From: a virus
Taxonomy: Duplodnaviria > Caudoviricetes
DNA length: 64,000 bases
IMG/VR virus record: IMGVR_UViG_3300028591_003923
Span: 32,001 to 96,000 of that record
Strand: one strand, 5' to 3'
Below are positions 2,280 through 17,005 of the stretch, one piece after another. Below the pieces are notes generated by a model that ran no database searches, was not told where the DNA came from, and was given only the letters and a program-made list of their open reading frames with translations. The position numbers and the translations under genes are program-made. Within the stretch, counting starts at the first letter, position 1. The number at the start of each line of letters is the position of its first letter.

Positions 2280-2939
2280 ACAATTTCATAAATAAATATA
2301 CTACTTGAACTCAGTGTAGAGATGCTAAACTAGTATCGCTGAGGCGCAGGCTGACAGAGTTACCCAGGACTACGAAACAAGGATACTTGCGGATAGTTGG
2401 CTGTGGAAGCGGGGCGACCCGTGGAAAGAAGACCTGGAAGGTCAACGGCTGAAAGATGTACAGTGCGGCGCTTCGGTTATCGCAGATAAAGGTAGCATGT
2501 GGGTCGGGGATGTAATAGACGCTCCTGTGGAGAAGAATCCAAGTTAGGGACTTAGCTGGTGACTGCGTTCACACCTTGGAAATACCAATAAATTCCTTTG
2601 CCGTGAAGCGGTGAGAACCGTGTATAAGACCTGCGTGTCGCGTACGAGTAGCACAAATGGCAAGACTTGGACAGAAGGAAAATTGTACAAGTGTAATAGG
2701 TTATACACTCTTATTCTAATCCGTACAGTGTGTGAAAGTTAAAGGTAGACATTCCTTTATGGACTAATGGCTCTGCGGAGTAGTCGCTAGGGAACGGCGG
2801 CAGTAACAGTAGTTCCTGGTTATTGAGGACGGGACTTGCAACCCCGTACATGGCAGTAACTATCCATTGACTGAATATATCTGAAGGTAGCTAGAAGTAA
2901 GATGAAAGTCTCTTGTTGTATATTTATTTATGAAATTGT
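2280..2939 (+). ncRNA. ROOL-like large ncRNA
   Basis: Perfect 22 bp closing stem 2280-2301/2918-2939 enclosing ~620 nt without ORF; size, tRNA-rich Firmicutes phage context and GAGTAGCACAAA, GTGAAAG, GGTAGCT segments resemble ROOL as recalled. Confidence 0.6.
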
Positions 2940-3863: not shown

Positions 3864-4649
3864 ATGATTTTTTGCACTGGAGATACTCATCAAGGATATG
3901 ATATAGCTAAACTTAAATGCTTTGCCCAAGAGGGTGGAAAAGACTTAACCAAAAACGATTATGTAATTGTTTGTGGTGACTTTGGCTTACTTTGGAACTA
4001 CCGAGAAACAGGCGAGTATATGCCATCTAATCCCGCAGATGCTCACTGGACACGGCGCGAGCGCGAACTTTATGATTGGTATAATGAGTTGCCTTGGACT
4101 ACACTTTTCGTCTCGGGGAACCATGAGTGCTTTGATAGACTCGATAGCTATCCAATTATTGAATGGCACGGCGGCCGAGTGCAAAGAATCAGTGATTCTA
4201 TTATCCATTTAATGCGTGGTGAAATATTTGAGCTTGAGGGTAAGACGATACTAACTTTCGGCGGCGCGCAGAGTACGGATAGAGGAACGATTACTCATAC
4301 TGAAGACTTTGACGAACATAGGATATGGTGGAGACAGGAAATTCCTTCAACTGTTGAATACAATCATGCAGTAGATAATTTAAAAAAACATAATAATAAA
4401 GTAGATTATATAATAACACATGATTGTCCATTTGACATAAAGCAAGTAATTTACGCTACTACTTTTGACAGTTATGGTAATACAAATGCTAATGCAGTAT
4501 CAGCGATGATTAATTCATGGCTTTATACGGTAGACTTTACTCATTGGTACTGCGGTCACCTACATATGGATAGAGATGTAAGAAATGTTAGTGTTTTATA
4601 TCAAGATATAGTTCCATTAGTACAGGAGGATATGTATGAATCTATTTAA
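3864..4649 (+). CDS. calcineurin-like metallophosphoesterase
   Basis: GDTH, GDFG, GNHE, THxxP and GHxH motifs. Confidence 0.9.
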   Translation: MIFCTGDTHQGYDIAKLKCFAQEGGKDLTKNDYVIVCGDFGLLWNYRETGEYMPSNPADAHWTRRERELYDWYNELPWTTLFVSGNHECFDRLDSYPIIEWHGGRVQRISDSIIHLMRGEIFELEGKTILTFGGAQSTDRGTITHTEDFDEHRIWWRQEIPSTVEYNHAVDNLKKHNNKVDYIITHDCPFDIKQVIYATTFDSYGNTNANAVSAMINSWLYTVDFTHWYCGHLHMDRDVRNVSVLYQDIVPLVQEDMYESI

Positions 4650-5884: not shown

Positions 5885-6181
5885 ATGGTTACTTTAAAAG
5901 ATACGTTTGAGGAAGTCGGTTCAGAAGAGTATGGACCGTGGCAGTATAAGGCTGTTGTTTACGACGAAGACGAGAAAGAGCGGAGAATTCATAAAGGAAT
6001 TTGTTTTGGTACAGACTATGCTTCAGCCGCAAAGAAAGTAGAGTCGTATTTTCAGACGGATTTAATAAGTTTAACGCTTTACCCACTTGAACCGTTTCCG
6101 ATTTATGATTTTACAGATGCATATGAATCTGAGTGGGATTTATTTACTATAACTACATGTGATAAACAAAATAAATTTTGA
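5885..6181 (+). CDS. hypothetical protein
   Basis: Own promoter and AAAGGAG RBS. Confidence 0.65.
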   Translation: MVTLKDTFEEVGSEEYGPWQYKAVVYDEDEKERRIHKGICFGTDYASAAKKVESYFQTDLISLTLYPLEPFPIYDFTDAYESEWDLFTITTCDKQNKF

Positions 6182-6381
6182 CTAAATAATAAATTTTTGA
6201 TATAATATATATGTAAGTTGAGAAAGGAAGAGAAAAAAACAGAGTAAACGCCGTTCTCAAGGACTTGAAATCGTACTCGTCTCAACTAATTATAAATACC
6301 TCCATTTAAAAAAGTCTGAACTAACATGAAATGGAGTGAAACCACATACCTGAGCATGTATTAAAACCGCTCACTAAGTGC

Positions 6382-6506
6382 CGGAATATAGTTTATGGGG
6401 AGAGAATATCGCTGTCCGTCGCAAGAGCCGTTGCGCATCGGTTTAATATACACTTGTCATCTTGCATAGGAGAGCGAAGAGACGGGTTCGACTCCCGTTG
6501 TTCCGG
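6382..6506 (+). ncRNA. tRNA-like RNA with ~60 nt insertion in the anticodon arm
   Basis: Acceptor CGGAATA/TGTTCCG, D arm, T arm ACGGG-TTCGACT-CCCGT, stem TCGCT/AGCGA enclosing a long structured insert. Confidence 0.7.
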
Positions 6507-6593: not shown

Positions 6594-6670
6594 GCGGAAT
6601 TAGCTCAGTTGGGATGAGCGCTAGTCTTACAAACTAGAGGTCACTGGTTCGATCCCAGTATTCCGTACCA
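6594..6670 (+). tRNA. tRNA-Val(TAC)
   Basis: Canonical cloverleaf, CTAGT-CTTACAA-ACTAG, CCA. Confidence 0.95.
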
Positions 6671-6780
6671 TTCAGGTCGGCAGCCTACCTTGTCCGCGGA
6701 ATTTAAAAAGACGCTGCTGCTTTGTAAGTACAATGCTAAAAACTTTCTGTTTGGACCTTGGCGTCAAAGGTCCCATATGT

Positions 6781-6857
6781 GGCGGCATAGTGCAGTCGGT
6801 TAACACGTCAGCTTTTCATGCTGAAGATGCGCGGTTCGAATCCGCGTGCCGTTACCA
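6781..6857 (+). tRNA. tRNA-Glu(TTC)
   Basis: Cloverleaf, TCAGC-TTTTCAT-GCTGA, CCA. Confidence 0.9.
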
Positions 6858-7079
6858 CAAGGAAGCAGGGTTCGTCCCCTTAAAACGCTCGCCGCTAAAG
6901 GAGCCAGATGATGCTGTGGGAACCTTGGGCATTGGAAGAATGTAAACTGTTTAAGGGCACGTGAAAGATAAATAATAAGGCGTTATAGTAGTGAGAATAG
7001 GGAATTGCGGAGCCTTATACGAAGAACGAAGGTAGCTACTAAGTACCCGTCGTGCGAGGTACTAACAGTTTATATATAT

Positions 7080-7155
7080 GGGTTGATAGCTCAGTTGGTA
7101 GAGCGCCGCACTGTTAATGCGGATGTCCTAGGTTCAAGTCCTAGTCTTCCCGCCA
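7080..7155 (+). tRNA. tRNA-Asn(GTT)
   Basis: CCGCA-CTGTTAA-TGCGG; two U.U mismatches in acceptor stem; CCA. Confidence 0.9.
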
Positions 7156-7192
7156 CTGCTCATCGGCATACCCCTTTTAGAGGTGTGCTTAT

Positions 7193-7253
7193 GGTCGGGA
7201 TGGAGACCTAAAACCCATTCCAATTGGTCGGAGCGGAGACCTAAAACCCGCTC
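7193..7253 (+). repeat. tandem pair of H-type pseudoknot motifs GGTC-N7-A-GACC-TAAAAC-N
   Basis: Two copies with covarying loop/tail pairing (GGGATGG/CCATTCC; GAGCGG/CCGCTC). Confidence 0.7.
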
Positions 7254-7258
7254 AATAT

Positions 7259-7334
7259 GTCTCGGTCGTTCAACGGTTTAGGATGATAGCCTGTCACGCT
7301 ATTGATTGGAGTTCGATTCTCCATCGAGACGCCA
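7259..7334 (+). tRNA. tRNA-Asp(GTC)
   Basis: ATAGC-CTGTCAC-GCTAT, T arm, CCA. Confidence 0.92.
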
Positions 7335-7337
7335 TAT

Positions 7338-7408
7338 GTCCACATAACTCAATGGTAGAGAAACGCCAGTTAACGGCGGATATAAGGGTTCAAGTCCCTT
7401 TGTGGGCA
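7338..7408 (+). tRNA. atypical tRNA, apparent anticodon TTA (loop AGTTAAC)
   Basis: Acceptor GTCCACA/TGTGGGC, D and T arms good; anticodon loop lacks U33. Confidence 0.65.
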
Positions 7409-7619
7409 AGCAGAAGATACTGCTTAATCAAATCGGAGGTATGGCAAGAGTATCAGAGTCCTCGTTTAAGAAAATTCATACTCATTTTCTCATACCTGCA
7501 GCAAAACGGGGTTACGCAGATGTGCGGTTGGCCGACCTTAAGGCACGGTTTATAAACCTATTATTTCCTCCAGTTCGGTAGCATCGTCGCGGAGGTAAAC
7601 CTAAGCTACCAATTTATTT

Positions 7620-7693
7620 GCGCCGCGAGCCTGACGGACGGGCGACGGACCGCAACTCCGTGAAACTTGGTTCGACTCCAAGGTGGCGCTCCA
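7620..7693 (+). tRNA. tRNA-Cys(GCA)
   Basis: ACGGA-CCGCAAC-TCCGT, U73 discriminator, CCA. Confidence 0.88.
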
Positions 7694-7713
7694 GTTAAAG
7701 AAAGGATAAACTA

Positions 7714-7992
7714 ATGGCTCAGTTGTTTAAAGTAGAAGAATGGCAAGGTGGTTCAGGCTTATGGTGGGTAGCTGATACGCACACATGGACTGGCTGGCGC
7801 GCCATAGCGGAAGACTTAGACGTTGACCGCAATGGTTTAATAGAGTTGCTTAGAACAAAGTATGGAGCTACGGTTTACGATGAAAAGAAATTCTTTTTCT
7901 TTTTTGAGAAATATAAAAATGCACATCAGTTTAAACTTGATGTGAATAGAATTGCTAGACATAAACAGTTAATGGTAGAAAAGCAATTTTGA
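7714..7992 (+). CDS. hypothetical protein within tRNA cluster
   Basis: GAAAGGA RBS, 92 aa. Confidence 0.7.
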   Translation: MAQLFKVEEWQGGSGLWWVADTHTWTGWRAIAEDLDVDRNGLIELLRTKYGATVYDEKKFFFFFEKYKNAHQFKLDVNRIARHKQLMVEKQF

Positions 7993-7995
7993 CGT

Positions 7996-8069
7996 CGCAG
8001 GGTGCAACTAAAGGTAGGTTGGCGTGGCTCATAACCACGATCGTGCAGGTTCGACTCCTGTCCCTGCAA
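7996..8069 (+). tRNA. tRNA-Met(CAT), initiator-like
   Basis: C1:A72 mismatch, CGTGG-CTCATAA-CCACG. Confidence 0.88.
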
Positions 8070-8206
8070 TTTAAAGGTCGAAAACCTACGACCACCGTTA
8101 ACACGGATTCATCTACTAAACTACCACCGGCACATCAGATAAGTATGTGATATGTGGCTTGCGGAAAACGGGATATAAAGAAGCGAAGTAAGTAGATTCC
8201 TTTCTT

Positions 8207-8416
8207 ATGGAGGAACTGTTAATGCAAAAAATTTGGGAAACGAATATCAAATGGATGCAGAAAATTGACGACTTATTAGGCCAAGCCGATGAATCAAACA
8301 AATACACTGAACTGCTCGCGCAGCTTAGTCAATATCTATGGGATTCTGCAGACCAACTTAGACATAAAGAAGTTGAAATAGACCAATTAATTCAAACACT
8401 TTCAAAGCTTCCTTAA
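8207..8416 (+). CDS. hypothetical helical protein
   Basis: ORF with GGAGG (probable start 8222). Confidence 0.55.
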   Translation: MEELLMQKIWETNIKWMQKIDDLLGQADESNKYTELLAQLSQYLWDSADQLRHKEVEIDQLIQTLSKLP

Positions 8417-8493
8417 GGGGGTATAACGGTTTCGAGCGGCGTTAAGTCCGAAGTGACCTCGTCGTGAAGTGGGTTCGACTCCCACTACTTCCA
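8417..8493 (+). ncRNA. mini-tmRNA: tRNA-like domain only
   Basis: 5' GGGGGTATAACGGTTTCGAG tmRNA-type start, G3.U70 and A73, T arm GTGGG-TTCGACT-CCCAC, short P2 CGGCG/CGTCG closing an 18 nt loop. Confidence 0.75.
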
Positions 8494-8494
8494 T

Positions 8495-8888
8495 TGTCAG
8501 TGGTGTAACGTATGCGGCGCCCGCGCTAAATACGTAGGGATTATCTTATGGGAAGGGATAAGATGGGCGCAGTTGACTTTAAACAGTCGGTAGGTTGTGA
8601 CGAATAGGAACTGCGTAAGTCGTCGGAGAGGTCCTGCCTTAGTGGACGATTTATAAGTCCGCACGTTGGATTGTTCCCGCAGCAAGAGGTAGACGACCCA
8701 TCTACAACTTTTCCGTGCGGTTATTGAACTGTAATAAAGGCTTGGGTAAGAGGACCCTGTAAGTAGTTGATAGTGGAACAATAACCTTTGATTTAATGAG
8801 TTAACTTAAGTTAGCTTTAGATGGGAGTCTTGAACAGGCTATTAGACTTAATACTCGGCCGTGGAGCGCGCATTACAAATCCCATCTT
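8495..8888 (+). ncRNA. unclassified structured RNA(s)
   Basis: No credible + ORF; many nested and crossing complementary pairs. Confidence 0.5.
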
Positions 8889-8927
8889 TTATGCGCGAGT
8901 GGTGGAATAGGCAGACACGAGGGACTT

Positions 8928-9693
8928 AAGTAATTTGAGCACTTGGGTTGGAAACTCCTAAGTGAATGCTGGCTAACTCGGAAGAAACCCCAATGGGGCG
9001 ATTCCGAACTAAATTTTTCCTTTTAGGAATACAAAAGGTAGAGCTTCCCTCTAGTTTTCCTACTTATATATAGAAAGGGAAAATGGAGGAACAAAAATGA
9101 AACAGTATACTAAAGAATGGTTAAGTGAATTATGTGCTGAAAGTTATTCGTATTCAGAAGTTTTAAGAAAGGCGGGTCGCAAGCCTGGCGGCGGTGCTAA
9201 TGAAACTTTAAAGAAAAAAATCTTAGAATATGGAATTGATACTTCGCATTTTACTGGACAGGCATGGACAAAAGCTCCAACTTATACGGCGCGGCCTGGT
9301 AGTAAAGAAAAATATTCACTTGAAGAAGTATTTAAAGAGCATAGTACCGTTTCACAAAAAGTATTGCGTGGTTATGTAGAAAGACATAATGTAATACCTT
9401 ATAAATGTGCAATTTGTGGATGTGATGGTAACTGGCAAGGTAGTACTATTGCTTTAGAACTTGACCATATTGATGGCAATAATACCAATGACGTAGTATC
9501 TAATTTACGTTATTTGTGTCCTAATTGCCATGCATTAACTGCAACATACCGTGGTAGAAATAAAGGGAAAATAAATGCGTAGAGACTATACACCAGCCTC
9601 CTAAGGATTGTGGCTTCAAGCGGCCGCAATCTACGGAGAAGAAATAGTCCAGACCACAACATTTTTATGGCTATGGTAACATAGTGTGGTAAG
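8928..9693 (+). mobile_element. group I intron (trnL-UAA type, probably IC3) carrying an HNH homing endonuclease
   Basis: Inserted after U34, ends in G; P/Q-like AACTCGGAAGAAACC and AATCC-like, R GTAGAGACTA, S ATAGTCCA elements resemble the cyanobacterial trnL intron. Confidence 0.88.
9097..9582 (+). CDS. intron-encoded HNH endonuclease
   Basis: CxxC...LELDHIDGNNTN...NLRYLCPNCH; GGAGG RBS. Confidence 0.92.
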   Translation: MKQYTKEWLSELCAESYSYSEVLRKAGRKPGGGANETLKKKILEYGIDTSHFTGQAWTKAPTYTARPGSKEKYSLEEVFKEHSTVSQKVLRGYVERHNVIPYKCAICGCDGNWQGSTIALELDHIDGNNTNDVVSNLRYLCPNCHALTATYRGRNKGKINA

Positions 9694-9858
9694 AAAATCC
9701 CTTGGCCGTTAGGTCGTGAGGGTTCAAGTCCCTCCTTGCGCACCACATATAGGGAGTAGAGTAACGGCGCCCCTTCTAATCCATATGATTTGCCTAATAT
9801 GGAAAAGAAAAGAATTGGGATATGGCAATTATCTAATAATTCACACCGCGAATCCCCT

Positions 9859-9932
9859 ATCAGCTTGGTGTAACGATAGCACAGCAGTCTCCAAAACTGC
9901 GAGTCAGGGTTTGAATCCTTGGGCTGGTGCCA
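9859..9932 (+). tRNA. tRNA-Trp(CCA)
   Basis: GCAGT-CTCCAAA-ACTGC; CCA end. Confidence 0.88.
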
Positions 9933-10136
9933 TCTACCCCAACAAGTTTATTCCATACTTAGTTGGTAAAAGAAGAGTAAGGAATACGTGTCCTACCGGT
10001 CGTTAATGTTGTGTTTACGGTGAGAACGTGTGTAGGGAAAACCGTTATATAGGATATGCAATACGCGTCCTAGGGTAAATAGGTATATCCTTCCGTAAAG
10101 TCGGACGTTGGCGCTCTACGATAGTGAGTGACATCA

Positions 10137-10211
10137 CGGAGTATGGCGCAGTTTGGCTAGCGCGTTTGCTTTGGGAGCAAAATGCCGTAGGTTCAAATCC
10201 TACTACTCCGA
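10137..10211 (+). tRNA. tRNA-Pro(TGG)
   Basis: CGGAGTA/TACTCCG, TTTGC-TTTGGGA-GCAAA. Confidence 0.93.
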
Positions 10212-10216
10212 CTTGC

Positions 10217-10289
10217 GCGCCATTAACTCAGTTGGAAGAGTAACGCACTTTTAATGCGTGAGGCCGCAGTTCGAGTCTGCTATGGCGCA
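10217..10289 (+). tRNA. tRNA-Lys(TTT)
   Basis: GCGCCAT/ATGGCGC, ACGCA-CTTTTAA-TGCGT. Confidence 0.9.
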
Positions 10290-15299: not shown

Positions 15300-15797
15300 A
15301 TGTCACAGTATTTAGAGTTTTATATTAGACATAACGATGATTATCTTCCAATTGCATCATATTGCGGTAGTTCCGCATATATGGAAATGTTTGATGATTA
15401 TGTTCCAAGTTATAGTGGACTTCGTACGGTCACTGAATCAATGCTGAGTTCGGTGCGCGCGGATGTTCAGCAGAAAATTAAGGAGAATGAACAGTGCATT
15501 AAAAGAGCTGAGAAACTGAAACAGGATATTCTCCAGGCTAATAACTCAATGGAAGAGAAAGTTGAATATATGGCAGGAGAAGACCAGGCTATAGAAGAAA
15601 CGGAAGATGAAAATAGGGCACTTGATAGTGTAGACCACTTCATTGATTTCCTTTATAATATACTTGAAGAAGCTGAATTCGGTGAGCATGAGGGAATACA
15701 GAAAGATAAGTATCTCTATGCGGGTGTAGAACCTGCGATTTGTAAAGACTACGATGAAATGACTCCAGAAGAAGTAAAGGAGGCGCGCGGATGGTAA
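15300..15797 (+). CDS. hypothetical coiled-coil protein
   Basis: Promoter and AAAGGAG RBS. Confidence 0.7.
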   Translation: MSQYLEFYIRHNDDYLPIASYCGSSAYMEMFDDYVPSYSGLRTVTESMLSSVRADVQQKIKENEQCIKRAEKLKQDILQANNSMEEKVEYMAGEDQAIEETEDENRALDSVDHFIDFLYNILEEAEFGEHEGIQKDKYLYAGVEPAICKDYDEMTPEEVKEARGW

Positions 15798-17005
15798 TAA
15801 ATAAAATGGACATGCACAAGAAACGTCAACGTGCACTCGCCCATGTAGAAAAAATAGCATGGATACGTCCAATAGAGGGCGCCGACAACATAGAACTTGT
15901 CGGTGTTCTTGGTTGGGTATGTATTGCTAAAATAGGTGAGTTTAAAGTTGGTGACTGGTGCGTTTATATTGAGATAGATTCTAAAGTGCCTGAAAAAGAG
16001 TGGTCTGAGTTTCTGCGCCCGAAGCACTTTAAGATTAAGACAATGAAGCTTGGTAAGTTTAAAGTTATCAGCCAGGGTATAGCACTGCCGCTCTCTACGT
16101 TTGACATAGACATACCGCAGGAAGAGGGTAAAGACGTTACGAAGCTGCTTGGGGTTAAGTATTCTGTAAGGGAAGATAACTTTAGAAAATCAGAAATAGA
16201 TAAGTATAAAGCTATGGCGCAGCGTAGACCTGACGTGTTCAAAAAACCGTGGGCGCGCAGAATGATGAAGAACCCAATTGGAAAACGTATCATGTTTTTA
16301 CTCTATGGTAAGAAACGTGATGACCAGAAAAAGTTTCCAAAGAAGTTCCAGTTCGTGCATCCGACCGATGAAGAAAGAATAGAGAACATGCCATGGATTC
16401 TTGATGACCGCGATGCTCGTTACATTAAAACAACGAAAATAGACGGTACTTCAACTACGTTCATTCTTGAAAAGAAACTGTTCGGTTACGAATTCTATGT
16501 GCTCTCGCGCAATGTACGTCAGTTCACACCAGAACAGGGCAACTATCATTCACAAGATGAAAATGTGTATTGGGAAGTTGCAGAAAAATATAACGTAAAG
16601 GATTTCCTTATGAACTTTATAAAAGGCGGTAACTACCGTTATGTAGCTCTGCAAGGAGAAACCTATGGTTGCACTGAAAAAGGTGTAAAAATACAGGGCG
16701 ACCCGCATCACATTGGTGAACTTAGATTCGCAGCCTTCAACCTCATTGATTCTAAAATTGGACGTTGGGATTCGGTAGAAGGGCGCAAATGGTGTTCTTC
16801 GTTTGGAATACCTTGGGTGCCAATTGTAGATACGAACTGCCAGGTTGAATCAGACATGGAAGCTTTCAAACTTACTGCCGATGGACCATGTGAAATACCA
16901 GGTTCAACGGGGCTGCGCGAAGGCTATGTTTATAGGAAAGTTGGTGACCCTAACTTTTCGTTTAAGAACGTGTCAAGGAAATATTTACTGAAACATGGAC
17001 AGTAG
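15791..17005 (+). CDS. ATP-dependent RNA ligase (DRB0094/Rnl5-like)
   Basis: N-terminal PIEGADNIE OB module, KIDG motif I, QGE, EGxV, FKNVSxxYL. Confidence 0.88.
   Translation: MVINKMDMHKKRQRALAHVEKIAWIRPIEGADNIELVGVLGWVCIAKIGEFKVGDWCVYIEIDSKVPEKEWSEFLRPKHFKIKTMKLGKFKVISQGIALPLSTFDIDIPQEEGKDVTKLLGVKYSVREDNFRKSEIDKYKAMAQRRPDVFKKPWARRMMKNPIGKRIMFLLYGKKRDDQKKFPKKFQFVHPTDEERIENMPWILDDRDARYIKTTKIDGTSTTFILEKKLFGYEFYVLSRNVRQFTPEQGNYHSQDENVYWEVAEKYNVKDFLMNFIKGGNYRYVALQGETYGCTEKGVKIQGDPHHIGELRFAAFNLIDSKIGRWDSVEGRKWCSSFGIPWVPIVDTNCQVESDMEAFKLTADGPCEIPGSTGLREGYVYRKVGDPNFSFKNVSRKYLLKHGQ

What the first reader, a model, noticed from the sequence alone, without database searches (positions are those of the whole stretch)
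8417..8493. 77 nt tmRNA reduced to its tRNA-like domain, with no tag reading frame
Seen: tmRNA-type 5' end with stemless D-loop GGTTTCGA, alanine identity elements G3.U70 and A73, a T arm, and a short P2 helix capped by 18 nt where the ~270 nt mRNA/pseudoknot domain should be. Established: SmpB, AlaRS and EF-Tu recognise this domain. Inference: an SmpB decoy that blocks host trans-translation, or a tag-free ribosome-rescue RNA that spares phage proteins from degradation.
Basis: partly seen in the sequence, partly recalled or inferred. Interest (0 to 1): 0.8.

Follow-up and report, generated by a model that had tools for sequence, protein, structure and literature searches.

The report
Phage mini-tmRNA: tRNA-like domain only
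A large phage from a sheep gut sample carries a real, conserved 77-base gene for the alanine-accepting, tRNA-like end of the bacterial ribosome-rescue RNA (tmRNA) with the whole tag-coding part missing; one phage example (DS6A) is already published, so this is a new member of a known but little-studied kind that probably interferes with the host's ribosome rescue and protein tagging.

Summary
Window 8417-8493 (+) has a 7-bp acceptor stem with G3:U70 (plus G4:U69), A73, the stemless tmRNA D-loop analogue GGUUUCGA, a 6-bp P2 helix capped by 18 nt, and a T arm. ARAGORN and Rfam's gathering cut-off miss it. Rfam's tmRNA model aligns it end to end at 32.6-39.4 bits (cut-off 47), with 314 model positions replaced by 18 nt. 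A covariance model built without it or its relatives scores it 65 bits, against 17.7 or less for the window's ordinary tRNAs. The same model finds the published 'TLD only' tmRNA of mycobacteriophage DS6A at 61 bits.

It is not a deletion remnant. Four related phage records carry the same short form with compensatory changes in all three helices, and none of the records searched holds a full tmRNA.

About 75 of 119 viral pattern hits have this architecture, against 0 of 120 hits in bacterial and archaeal genomes. G1-G3, U70-C72 and A73 are invariant in 68 of 68.

Function is inferred: Ala-charged, SmpB-binding competitor of host tmRNA, as reported for DS6A. Expression was not shown. This scan had already found the class on other DNA. 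Verdict: new member of a known kind.

The parts
8417..8493 (+). whole mini-tmRNA gene (tRNA-like domain only), 77 nt up to the discriminator
   Evidence: RF00023 aligns end to end at 32.6-39.4 bits. Leave-out model R2 scores 65.0 bits; R1 scores 73.5 bits. A DNA contig of another context in run X3 matches exactly 8417-8485.
8417..8423 (+). acceptor stem 5' strand GGGGGUA; G3 = 8419
   Evidence: Pairs 7/7 with 8486-8492. G1, G2 and G3 are invariant in 68/68 family members.
8428..8435 (+). tmRNA-type D-loop analogue GGUUUCGA, with no D stem
   Evidence: Aligned to GGaUUCGA of the Rfam tmRNA consensus. It was part of the search pattern, so its invariance in the family is by construction.
8436..8465 (+). 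P2 helix (8436-8441 with 8460-8465) capped by an 18-nt loop (8442-8459) carrying the motif UAAGUCCGAAGUG
   Evidence: All 7 P2 pairs of the family covary and 95.5% of cells are paired. The loop motif AA..CCRAAGUG is shared with relatives G004, G005, G019 and G038.
8466..8468 (+). GAA junction, equivalent to the GAC of the tmRNA consensus G-GAC before the T arm
   Evidence: Aligned to GAC of the Rfam model. Variants GAA, GAC and UAC occur in relatives.
8469..8485 (+). T arm GUGGG-UUCGACU-CCCAC
   Evidence: Four of the 5 T-stem pairs covary in the family.
8486..8493 (+). acceptor 3' strand UACUUCC (U70 = 8490) and discriminator A73 (8493); no CCA encoded
   Evidence: U70, C71, C72 and A73 are invariant in 68/68. 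Sibling strain G038 encodes CCA.
6178..6206 (+). promoter-like site TTGACT-17-TG-TATAAT that could drive the tRNA array containing the element
   Evidence: Consensus scan gives 11 of 12 matches, and no + strand terminator-like site up to 10600. This is a consensus match only, not shown to function.
6594..10289 (+). same-strand tRNA array in which the element sits (context, processing by tRNA enzymes inferred)
   Evidence: ARAGORN finds 9 tRNAs and Rfam one more. Four of these tRNA genes also lack an encoded CCA.

Best explanation
Window 8417-8493 is a working gene for a 'TLD-only' (coding-sequence-less) tmRNA of the kind first seen in mycobacteriophage DS6A.

Proposed mechanism, all steps inferred:
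1. It is transcribed with the surrounding tRNA array.
2. Host tRNA enzymes cut it out: RNase P at G1, 3' trimming after A73, then CCA addition.
3. Host alanyl-tRNA synthetase recognises it through G3:U70 and A73.
4. Host SmpB, and EF-Tu, bind its tmRNA-type elbow (GGUUUCGA with the T loop, plus the base of P2).
5. Because it has no pseudoknots, resume codon or tag frame, it cannot add a degradation tag.
6. The net effect is competition with host tmRNA for SmpB and for stalled ribosomes. This lowers ssrA tagging and proteolysis during infection.

What is shown here: the architecture, its membership in a conserved virus-specific family, and selection on its helices and alanine identity elements.
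For: Architecture and tmRNA-type alignment.

Non-circular family test: leave-out model R2 scores the element 65.0 bits, against 17.7 or less for tRNAs. It also finds DS6A's published RNA at 61.3 bits; R1 finds DS6A at 58.4 bits.

Family-wide covariation on 68 sequences:
- 98% of cells are paired
- 15 of 19 pairs change on both sides
- covariation score 0.818, against 0.12 or less when partners are slid
- the P2 helix, which was not used to select sequences, is 95.5% paired with all 7 pairs covarying
- G1:C72, G2:C71 and G3:U70 are each present in 68/68, and A73 is invariant, though none of these was in the search pattern

Lineage conservation: related rumen phages G004, G005, G019 and G038 have the same short form. 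Compensatory changes include A7:U66 to G7:C66 in the near-identical strain G038.

No full or permuted tmRNA, SmpB or tyrosine integrase was found in the 129.5-kb genome.

Virus specificity: about 75 of 119 viral pattern hits have the architecture, against 0 of 120 in bacterial and archaeal genomes.

Published precedent: a DS6A-like TLD-only molecule strongly inhibits tmRNA in E. coli, perhaps by titrating SmpB (PMC4131195 and PMC11915505, citing Mao et al. 2009).
Against: - No expression evidence. The one RNA run laid gives only contigs, and they barely touch the element.
- Charging and SmpB binding are untested.
- CCA is not encoded and the phage has no CCA-adding enzyme, so maturation depends on the unknown host.
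- The element is missing from three complete relatives (G001-G003), so it is dispensable in this lineage.
- It scores below Rfam's tmRNA gathering cut-off (39.4 against 47 bits).
- The acceptor and T-stem pairing statistics are inflated, because my filter required those helices.
- The primary paper (Mao 2009) could not be read. The inhibition result is taken from two later papers by the same group.
Confidence: 0.6

Rival explanations
1. Tag-free ribosome rescue. The Ala-charged mini-RNA, with SmpB and EF-Tu, enters stalled ribosomes and accepts the nascent chain. The chain then leaves without a degradation tag, through drop-off and peptidyl-tRNA hydrolase, a release factor-like rescue protein, or repeated rounds that add a short alanine tail. 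Phage proteins made from damaged mRNAs would be spared and ribosomes recycled.
For: This rests on the same structural evidence as the main reading. Invariant G3:U70, A73 and acceptor end in 68/68 argue that charging itself is selected. [quoted passage not shown] CDS-less tmRNAs kept together with SmpB in mitochondria are thought to help with incomplete mRNAs (PMC11915505).
Against: No message is available after transfer, so release needs an extra, unidentified step. P2 with its cap is too short to reach the decoding centre (inference from tmRNA-SmpB structures, established knowledge). No test was done here.
Confidence: 0.22
2. A tRNA-shaped RNA used outside translation. Options are a processing signal that lets RNase P and RNase Z cut the polycistronic transcript, or a decoy for host defence proteins that sense or cut tRNA-like or tmRNA-like RNAs, such as anticodon nucleases or the SmpB-like domains of CoCoNuT restriction systems.
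For: The stop codon of the upstream ORF (8414-8416) abuts G1, and the element lies in a tRNA array. The phage also carries an RNA ligase, a typical tRNA-repair counter-defence gene. SmpB-like domains occur in defence systems (PMC11090510).
Against: A mere processing signal would not need an invariant G3:U70, A73 and tmRNA-type elbow. Also, 54 of 68 family members have no tRNA gene within 500 nt, so most are not part of tRNA arrays.
Confidence: 0.1
3. A non-functional leftover: either a full phage tmRNA that lost its middle by deletion, or an attP-type fragment of the host ssrA gene picked up by an integrating phage.
For: Phage genomes do carry full tmRNAs and ssrA fragments (PMC9004378). The element is absent from some relatives.
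Against: No relative has a full tmRNA. The short form recurs with compensatory changes. Both halves of the acceptor stem are present, whereas attP sites keep only the 3' part. There is no integrase in the genome, and the family covaries strongly.
Confidence: 0.03

Closest known systems
'TLD only' / 'standard, no CDS' tmRNA of Mycobacterium phage DS6A (JN698994 28478-28557; tmRNA Website ID 11587; Mao et al. 2009; PMC4131195; PMC11915505)
   Same: It is about 80 nt and phage-encoded, with acceptor stem G3:U70 and A73, a stemless D-loop analogue, a short P2 capped by a small loop, a T arm and no tag frame. Models built without either RNA find both (65.0 and 61.3 bits).
   Different: The host phylum differs: DS6A infects an actinobacterium, whereas this phage's terminase is nearest to those of Bacillota phages. 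DS6A has GGUGGUCGA rather than GGUUUCGA, a cap of the AAACCGCACGCGG type rather than UAAGUCCGAAGUG, and stands alone between protein genes rather than in a tRNA array.
Bacterial tmRNA (SsrA), Rfam RF00023
   Same: The tRNA-like domain is the same: acceptor stem with G3:U70, GGNUUCGA elbow, the base of P2 and the T arm. It aligns to model positions 1-25 and 340-371.
   Different: It lacks the 314 model positions that hold the pseudoknots, resume codon, tag reading frame and stop codon. It is below the family's gathering score and is encoded by a virus that has no smpB.
CDS-less organellar tmRNAs (jakobid and oomycete mitochondria, RF02544; roughly 65-bp plastid forms in Mallomonadaceae, PMC11915505)
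   Same: These are natural tmRNA derivatives reduced to about the tRNA-like domain and kept alongside SmpB.
   Different: They are organellar, vertically inherited and mostly permuted two-piece genes. No sequence-level relation was tested here.
Full-length phage tmRNAs (mycobacteriophage Bxz1 group, Bacillus phage G, two-piece tmRNA of Melnitz-like marine phages; PMC4131195, PMC9004378)
   Same: They are phage-borne copies of the rescue RNA, often near tRNA genes.
   Different: Those keep a tag reading frame and are found by ARAGORN. This one has none and is missed: ARAGORN of 68 family members.
tRNA-Ala
   Same: It has the G3:U70 and A73 identity set, a 7-bp acceptor stem and a T arm.
   Different: It has no D stem and no anticodon arm. 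The Rfam tRNA model does not report it, and a genuine tRNA-Ala of relative G003 falls below the reporting threshold of R2.

Membership tests
tmRNA (RF00023) | 7-bp acceptor stem with G3:U70 and discriminator A73 | tested here: met
   G8419:U8490 and A8493, with 7/7 pairs.
tmRNA (RF00023) | Stemless D-loop analogue GGNUUCGA followed by the P2 helix, and a T arm with a UUCRANU loop | tested here: met
   GGUUUCGA at 8428-8435, P2 at 8436-8441 with 8460-8465, and T arm at 8469-8485. These align to the model consensus.
tmRNA (RF00023) | mRNA-like domain: resume codon, tag reading frame and stop | tested here: not met
   Only 18 nt lie between the P2 strands, and 314 model positions are deleted. There is no tag-like frame there or in 8494-8890.
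tmRNA (RF00023) | Pseudoknots PK1-PK4 | tested here: not met
   No sequence is available for them.
tmRNA (RF00023) | Score at or above Rfam's gathering cut-off (47 bits) | tested here: not met
   32.6 bits and 39.4 bits. Relatives G005 and G004 do pass, at 71.8 and 56.7 bits.
tmRNA (RF00023) | Charged by AlaRS; bound by SmpB and EF-Tu | not testable with these tools
   This needs biochemistry. Only the sequence determinants are present.
TLD-only (CDS-less) phage tmRNA, DS6A type | RNA of 60-90 nt consisting of the tmRNA tRNA-like domain with P2 closed by a short cap | tested here: met
   77 nt, with a 6-bp P2 and an 18-nt cap.
TLD-only (CDS-less) phage tmRNA, DS6A type | Recognised by a covariance model of the class built without it, which also recognises the published DS6A RNA | tested here: met
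   R2 scores the window 65.0 bits and DS6A 61.3 bits, with tRNAs at 20.4 or less.
TLD-only (CDS-less) phage tmRNA, DS6A type | Helices maintained by compensatory change (a functional RNA, not a remnant) | tested here: met
   Family-wide counts; compensatory changes within the lineage.
TLD-only (CDS-less) phage tmRNA, DS6A type | Inhibits host tmRNA function when expressed | not testable with these tools
   Reported for DS6A in E. coli (PMC4131195, PMC11915505). Not tested for this RNA.
canonical tRNA (RF00005) | D stem and anticodon arm | tested here: not met
   ARAGORN and the Rfam tRNA model make no call. No anticodon arm can be drawn.

The most novel reading that the evidence does not exclude
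The mini-tmRNA is not just a sponge. It is charged and used on stalled ribosomes as a tag-free rescue factor, possibly adding one or a few template-free alanines. Phages would then convert the host's 'rescue and destroy' pathway into 'rescue and keep'. The strict virus-specificity and the invariant alanine identity set would then mark a distinct viral translation-control device.
Probability: 0.2. Interest if true: 0.75.

Novelty: new member of a known kind. Interest (0 to 1): 0.45.

Why it matters
Trans-translation is the main ribosome-rescue and quality-control route in bacteria, and it is a drug target. A natural, minimal, virus-borne competitor shows which parts of tmRNA are enough to engage AlaRS, SmpB and the ribosome. 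It also suggests that many phages tune this pathway.

This instance adds three things:
- A clear case in a roughly 130-kb ruminant-gut phage lineage, with the short form kept under selection.
- A control indicating that the form is virus-specific: 0 of 120 cellular pattern hits against about 75 of 119 viral ones.
- A reminder that ARAGORN and Rfam's cut-offs miss the class, so phage annotations under-report it.

Tried and rejected
- ARAGORN and Rfam at gathering threshold give no call at 8417-8493. The first wide Rfam E-value scan saw only the T arm.
- The fold energy of the 77 nt is not better than shuffles (z -0.14), so it is uninformative.
- An exact-pattern search for this element's own P2 in viral contigs found nothing.
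- The neighbouring 602-aa protein has no close relative in viral contigs. Relatives were reached through the terminase instead.
- Sequencing runs: the source is a sheep gut sample. The single RNA run (X24) is held only as contigs, and these cover 8498-8785 but hardly the element (depth 2.46 in its bin). Nothing can be said about expression either way.
- blastn against 50,697 deposited phage genomes finds only T-arm matches to tRNAs.
- Idea of a split tmRNA whose message lies in the 390 nt downstream: there is no frame ending in a tag-like Ala-rich C-terminus. Complementarity to the cap is no longer than 8 nt, which is about what chance gives. Rejected.
- A short frame GCG GCG UUA AGU CCG AAG UGA can be read through P2 and the cap. 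Its UGA is not conserved in G004, L048 or L071. Rejected as a tag.
- SmpB, CCA-adding enzyme, tyrosine integrase and permuted tmRNA were searched in the whole 129.5-kb genome; none was found.
- The primary paper Mao et al. 2009 is not held.

Full report
**What is there**

The window is bases 32001-96000 of a 129.5-kb virus record judged complete. Its best DNA holder is a sheep gut run, which may be the very sample the record was assembled from, and partial matches (shares of 0.15-0.39) occur in other sheep, cattle and goat gut runs.

At 8417-8493 on the + strand the sequence reads as follows:
- GGGGGUA, the acceptor 5' strand
- UAAC, a linker
- GGUUUCGA, the D-loop analogue
- GCGGCG, the P2 5' strand
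- an 18-nt cap, UUAAGUCCGAAGUGACCU
- CGUCGU, the P2 3' strand
- GAA
- GUGGG-UUCGACU-CCCAC, the T arm
- UACUUCC, the acceptor 3' strand
- A, the discriminator

The acceptor stem pairs 7/7 and contains G3:U70 and also G4:U69. There is no D stem, no anticodon arm and no encoded CCA.

**Is it more than chance, and is it tmRNA-like?**

ARAGORN and Rfam at gathering threshold do not call it. Rfam's tmRNA model aligns it from model position 1 to 371, replacing 314 model positions by the 18-nt cap. That scores 32.6 bits with E 3e-12 on the short stretch, and 39.4 bits in the whole-genome search. Both are below the 47-bit cut-off.

A pattern taken only from the elbow and the T loop (GGTTTCGA, 20-50 nt, GGTTCRANTCC) hit at least 119 viral contigs. 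About 75 of these have a perfect 7-bp acceptor stem, a 5-bp T stem, 5' GGG, 3' UCCA and a length of 62-88 nt.

I built a model (R2) from 14 of them, leaving out this element, its relatives and DS6A. R2 scores the window element 65.0 bits (E about 6e-14). The best ordinary tRNA of the window reaches 17.7 bits.

**Selection on the structure**

An alignment of 68 distinct members fitted to model R1 gave these counts:
- 98% of cells are standard pairs, against 39-54% when partners are slid.
- 15 of 19 pairs show changes on both sides.
- The covariation score is 0.818, against 0.12 or less in the controls.

My filter demanded intact acceptor and T stems, so those two helices are biased. P2 was not selected for, yet it is 95.5% paired with all seven pairs covarying. 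G1:C72, G2:C71 and G3:U70 are each present in 68 of 68, and A73 is invariant, although none of these positions was in the search pattern. That points to selection for recognition by alanyl-tRNA synthetase.

**Relatives of this phage**

The terminase finds 126 related viral contigs. Whole-record searches with RF00023 and with R1 gave three results:
- The short form is present in G004, G005, G019 and the near-identical strain G038, at 61.6-74.4 bits.
- It is absent from three complete relatives (G001-G003) and from several fragments.
- None of the 10 records searched with RF00023 holds a full-length tmRNA.

The five lineage copies differ by compensatory changes in all three helices. Between the window and G038, for example, A7:U66 becomes G7:C66. 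All five keep GGGG, GGUUUCGA, the cap motif AA..CCRAAGUG, the T loop and UCCA. G038, G019 and G005 encode CCA; the window copy does not. A DNA contig from another context in run X3 matches exactly from 8417 to 8485, which fits the predicted 5' boundary.

The genome has no tyrosine integrase, so an attP-type ssrA fragment is also unlikely. It also has no full or permuted tmRNA and no smpB.

**Context**

The element lies on the same strand as a tRNA array (6594-10289), directly after the stop codon of a 69-codon ORF. A strong promoter-like site lies at 6178-6206, and no + strand terminator-like site follows before 10600; these are consensus matches only.

Six tRNA genes of the array encode CCA and four do not. 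The phage has no CCA-adding enzyme. The host must therefore add CCA to some phage tRNAs anyway, and it could do the same for this RNA.

Family-wide, only 14 of 68 members have a tRNA gene within 500 nt, and ARAGORN calls none of the 68.

**Comparison with what is known**

The tmRNA database papers list one phage example, mycobacteriophage DS6A, as 'TLD only' or 'standard, no CDS'. They state that such a molecule, chargeable or not, strongly inhibits tmRNA in E. coli, perhaps by titrating SmpB (PMC4131195; PMC11915505; both citing Mao et al. 2009, which I could not read). The 2025 database holds only 9 'standard, no CDS' sequences and 79 phage tmRNAs in all.

My models, built without DS6A, find its RNA at JN698994 28478-28557 with 58.4 and 61.3 bits. 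The window element and DS6A therefore belong to one family.

The same pattern scanned over one genome per prokaryotic species returned 120 rows. None has the mini-tmRNA architecture; the few near-misses are selenocysteine-type tRNAs. Deposited phage genomes hold no close relative at BLAST level.

This scan had already reported the class several times on other DNA. My tests agree with those notes.

**How it most likely works**

Shown:
- no message part

Inferred from established tmRNA biology:
- AlaRS reads G3:U70 and A73.
- SmpB binds the elbow and takes the place of the anticodon arm.
- EF-Tu delivers the complex to stalled ribosomes.

On this basis the RNA is matured like a tRNA, charged with alanine and bound by host SmpB. 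Because it cannot supply a resume codon, it competes with host tmRNA and lowers tagging, as reported for DS6A. I give the whole statement 0.6: identity about 0.9, mechanism about 0.5.

The main rival is genuine tag-free rescue (0.22). The strict conservation of the charging determinants favours some use of the charged form. A non-translational role as a processing signal or defence decoy gets 0.1, and a remnant gets 0.03.

**Verdict**

This is a new member of a known kind. It is of moderate interest because the published knowledge rests on a single phage, while the family is evidently large and missed by standard tools.

Noticed in passing
window 8735-8790: A core of about 50 nt (GGCTTGGGTAAGAGGACCCTGTAAGTAGTTGATAGTGGAACAATAACC) is invariant. 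In the 22 viral contigs that hold the searched 23-mer, the rest of the core is unchanged in all but two (L242, L248), and the surroundings differ between most of them. It is closed by a 4-8 bp flanking helix whose sequence covaries, for example AAAGG/CCTTT, GGCGG/CCGCC, ATTGG/CCAAT and ATATAGGG/CCCTATAT. It often lies beside tRNA genes and has very high depth in all gut runs. There is no Rfam match even at E 10, and the predicted fold is weak. It is not linked to the mini-tmRNA. It is either an unknown small RNA motif or an element that inserts into palindromes.
   Followed up: partly
window 8494-8884: An ORF-free 390-nt stretch lies between the mini-tmRNA and tRNA-Leu. Its fold z-score is only -1.1, it has no tag-like frame and no Rfam match. 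An RNA-run contig covers 8498-8785. Apart from the 50-nt core above, it is not conserved in G004 or G005.
   Followed up: partly
window 8885-8920 and 9697-9753 (intron between; ORF 9097-9582): A tRNA-Leu(UAA) gene is split in the anticodon loop by a group I intron (RF00028, 21 bits, below cut-off) that carries an HNH homing-endonuclease ORF. Exon 2 matches tRNA-Leu of cyanophages, and contigs in other runs join the exons without this intron.
   Followed up: partly
window 7338-7408: A tRNA found by Rfam (44.1 bits) but not by ARAGORN. Its anticodon loop reads AGUUAAC, that is anticodon UUA, which would read the UAA stop codon, with an unusual G at position 33. It may be a suppressor tRNA.
   Followed up: no
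window 6383-6506: An RNA of about 124 nt with a tRNA frame: acceptor CCGGAAU/GUUCCGG and T arm GACGGG-UUCGACU-CCCGUU around a long insert. ARAGORN and Rfam do not call it. It is a second anticodon-less or insert-bearing tRNA-like candidate upstream of tRNA-Val.
   Followed up: no
window 2285-2931: A ROOL RNA (RF03087, 255.8 bits) lies a few kb upstream of the tRNA array.
   Followed up: no
window 15791-17005 and 3864-4649: An RNA ligase with a PHA02142 OB-fold domain and a calcineurin-like phosphoesterase. This may be an RNA-repair set that fits a phage investing in the translation apparatus.
   Followed up: no
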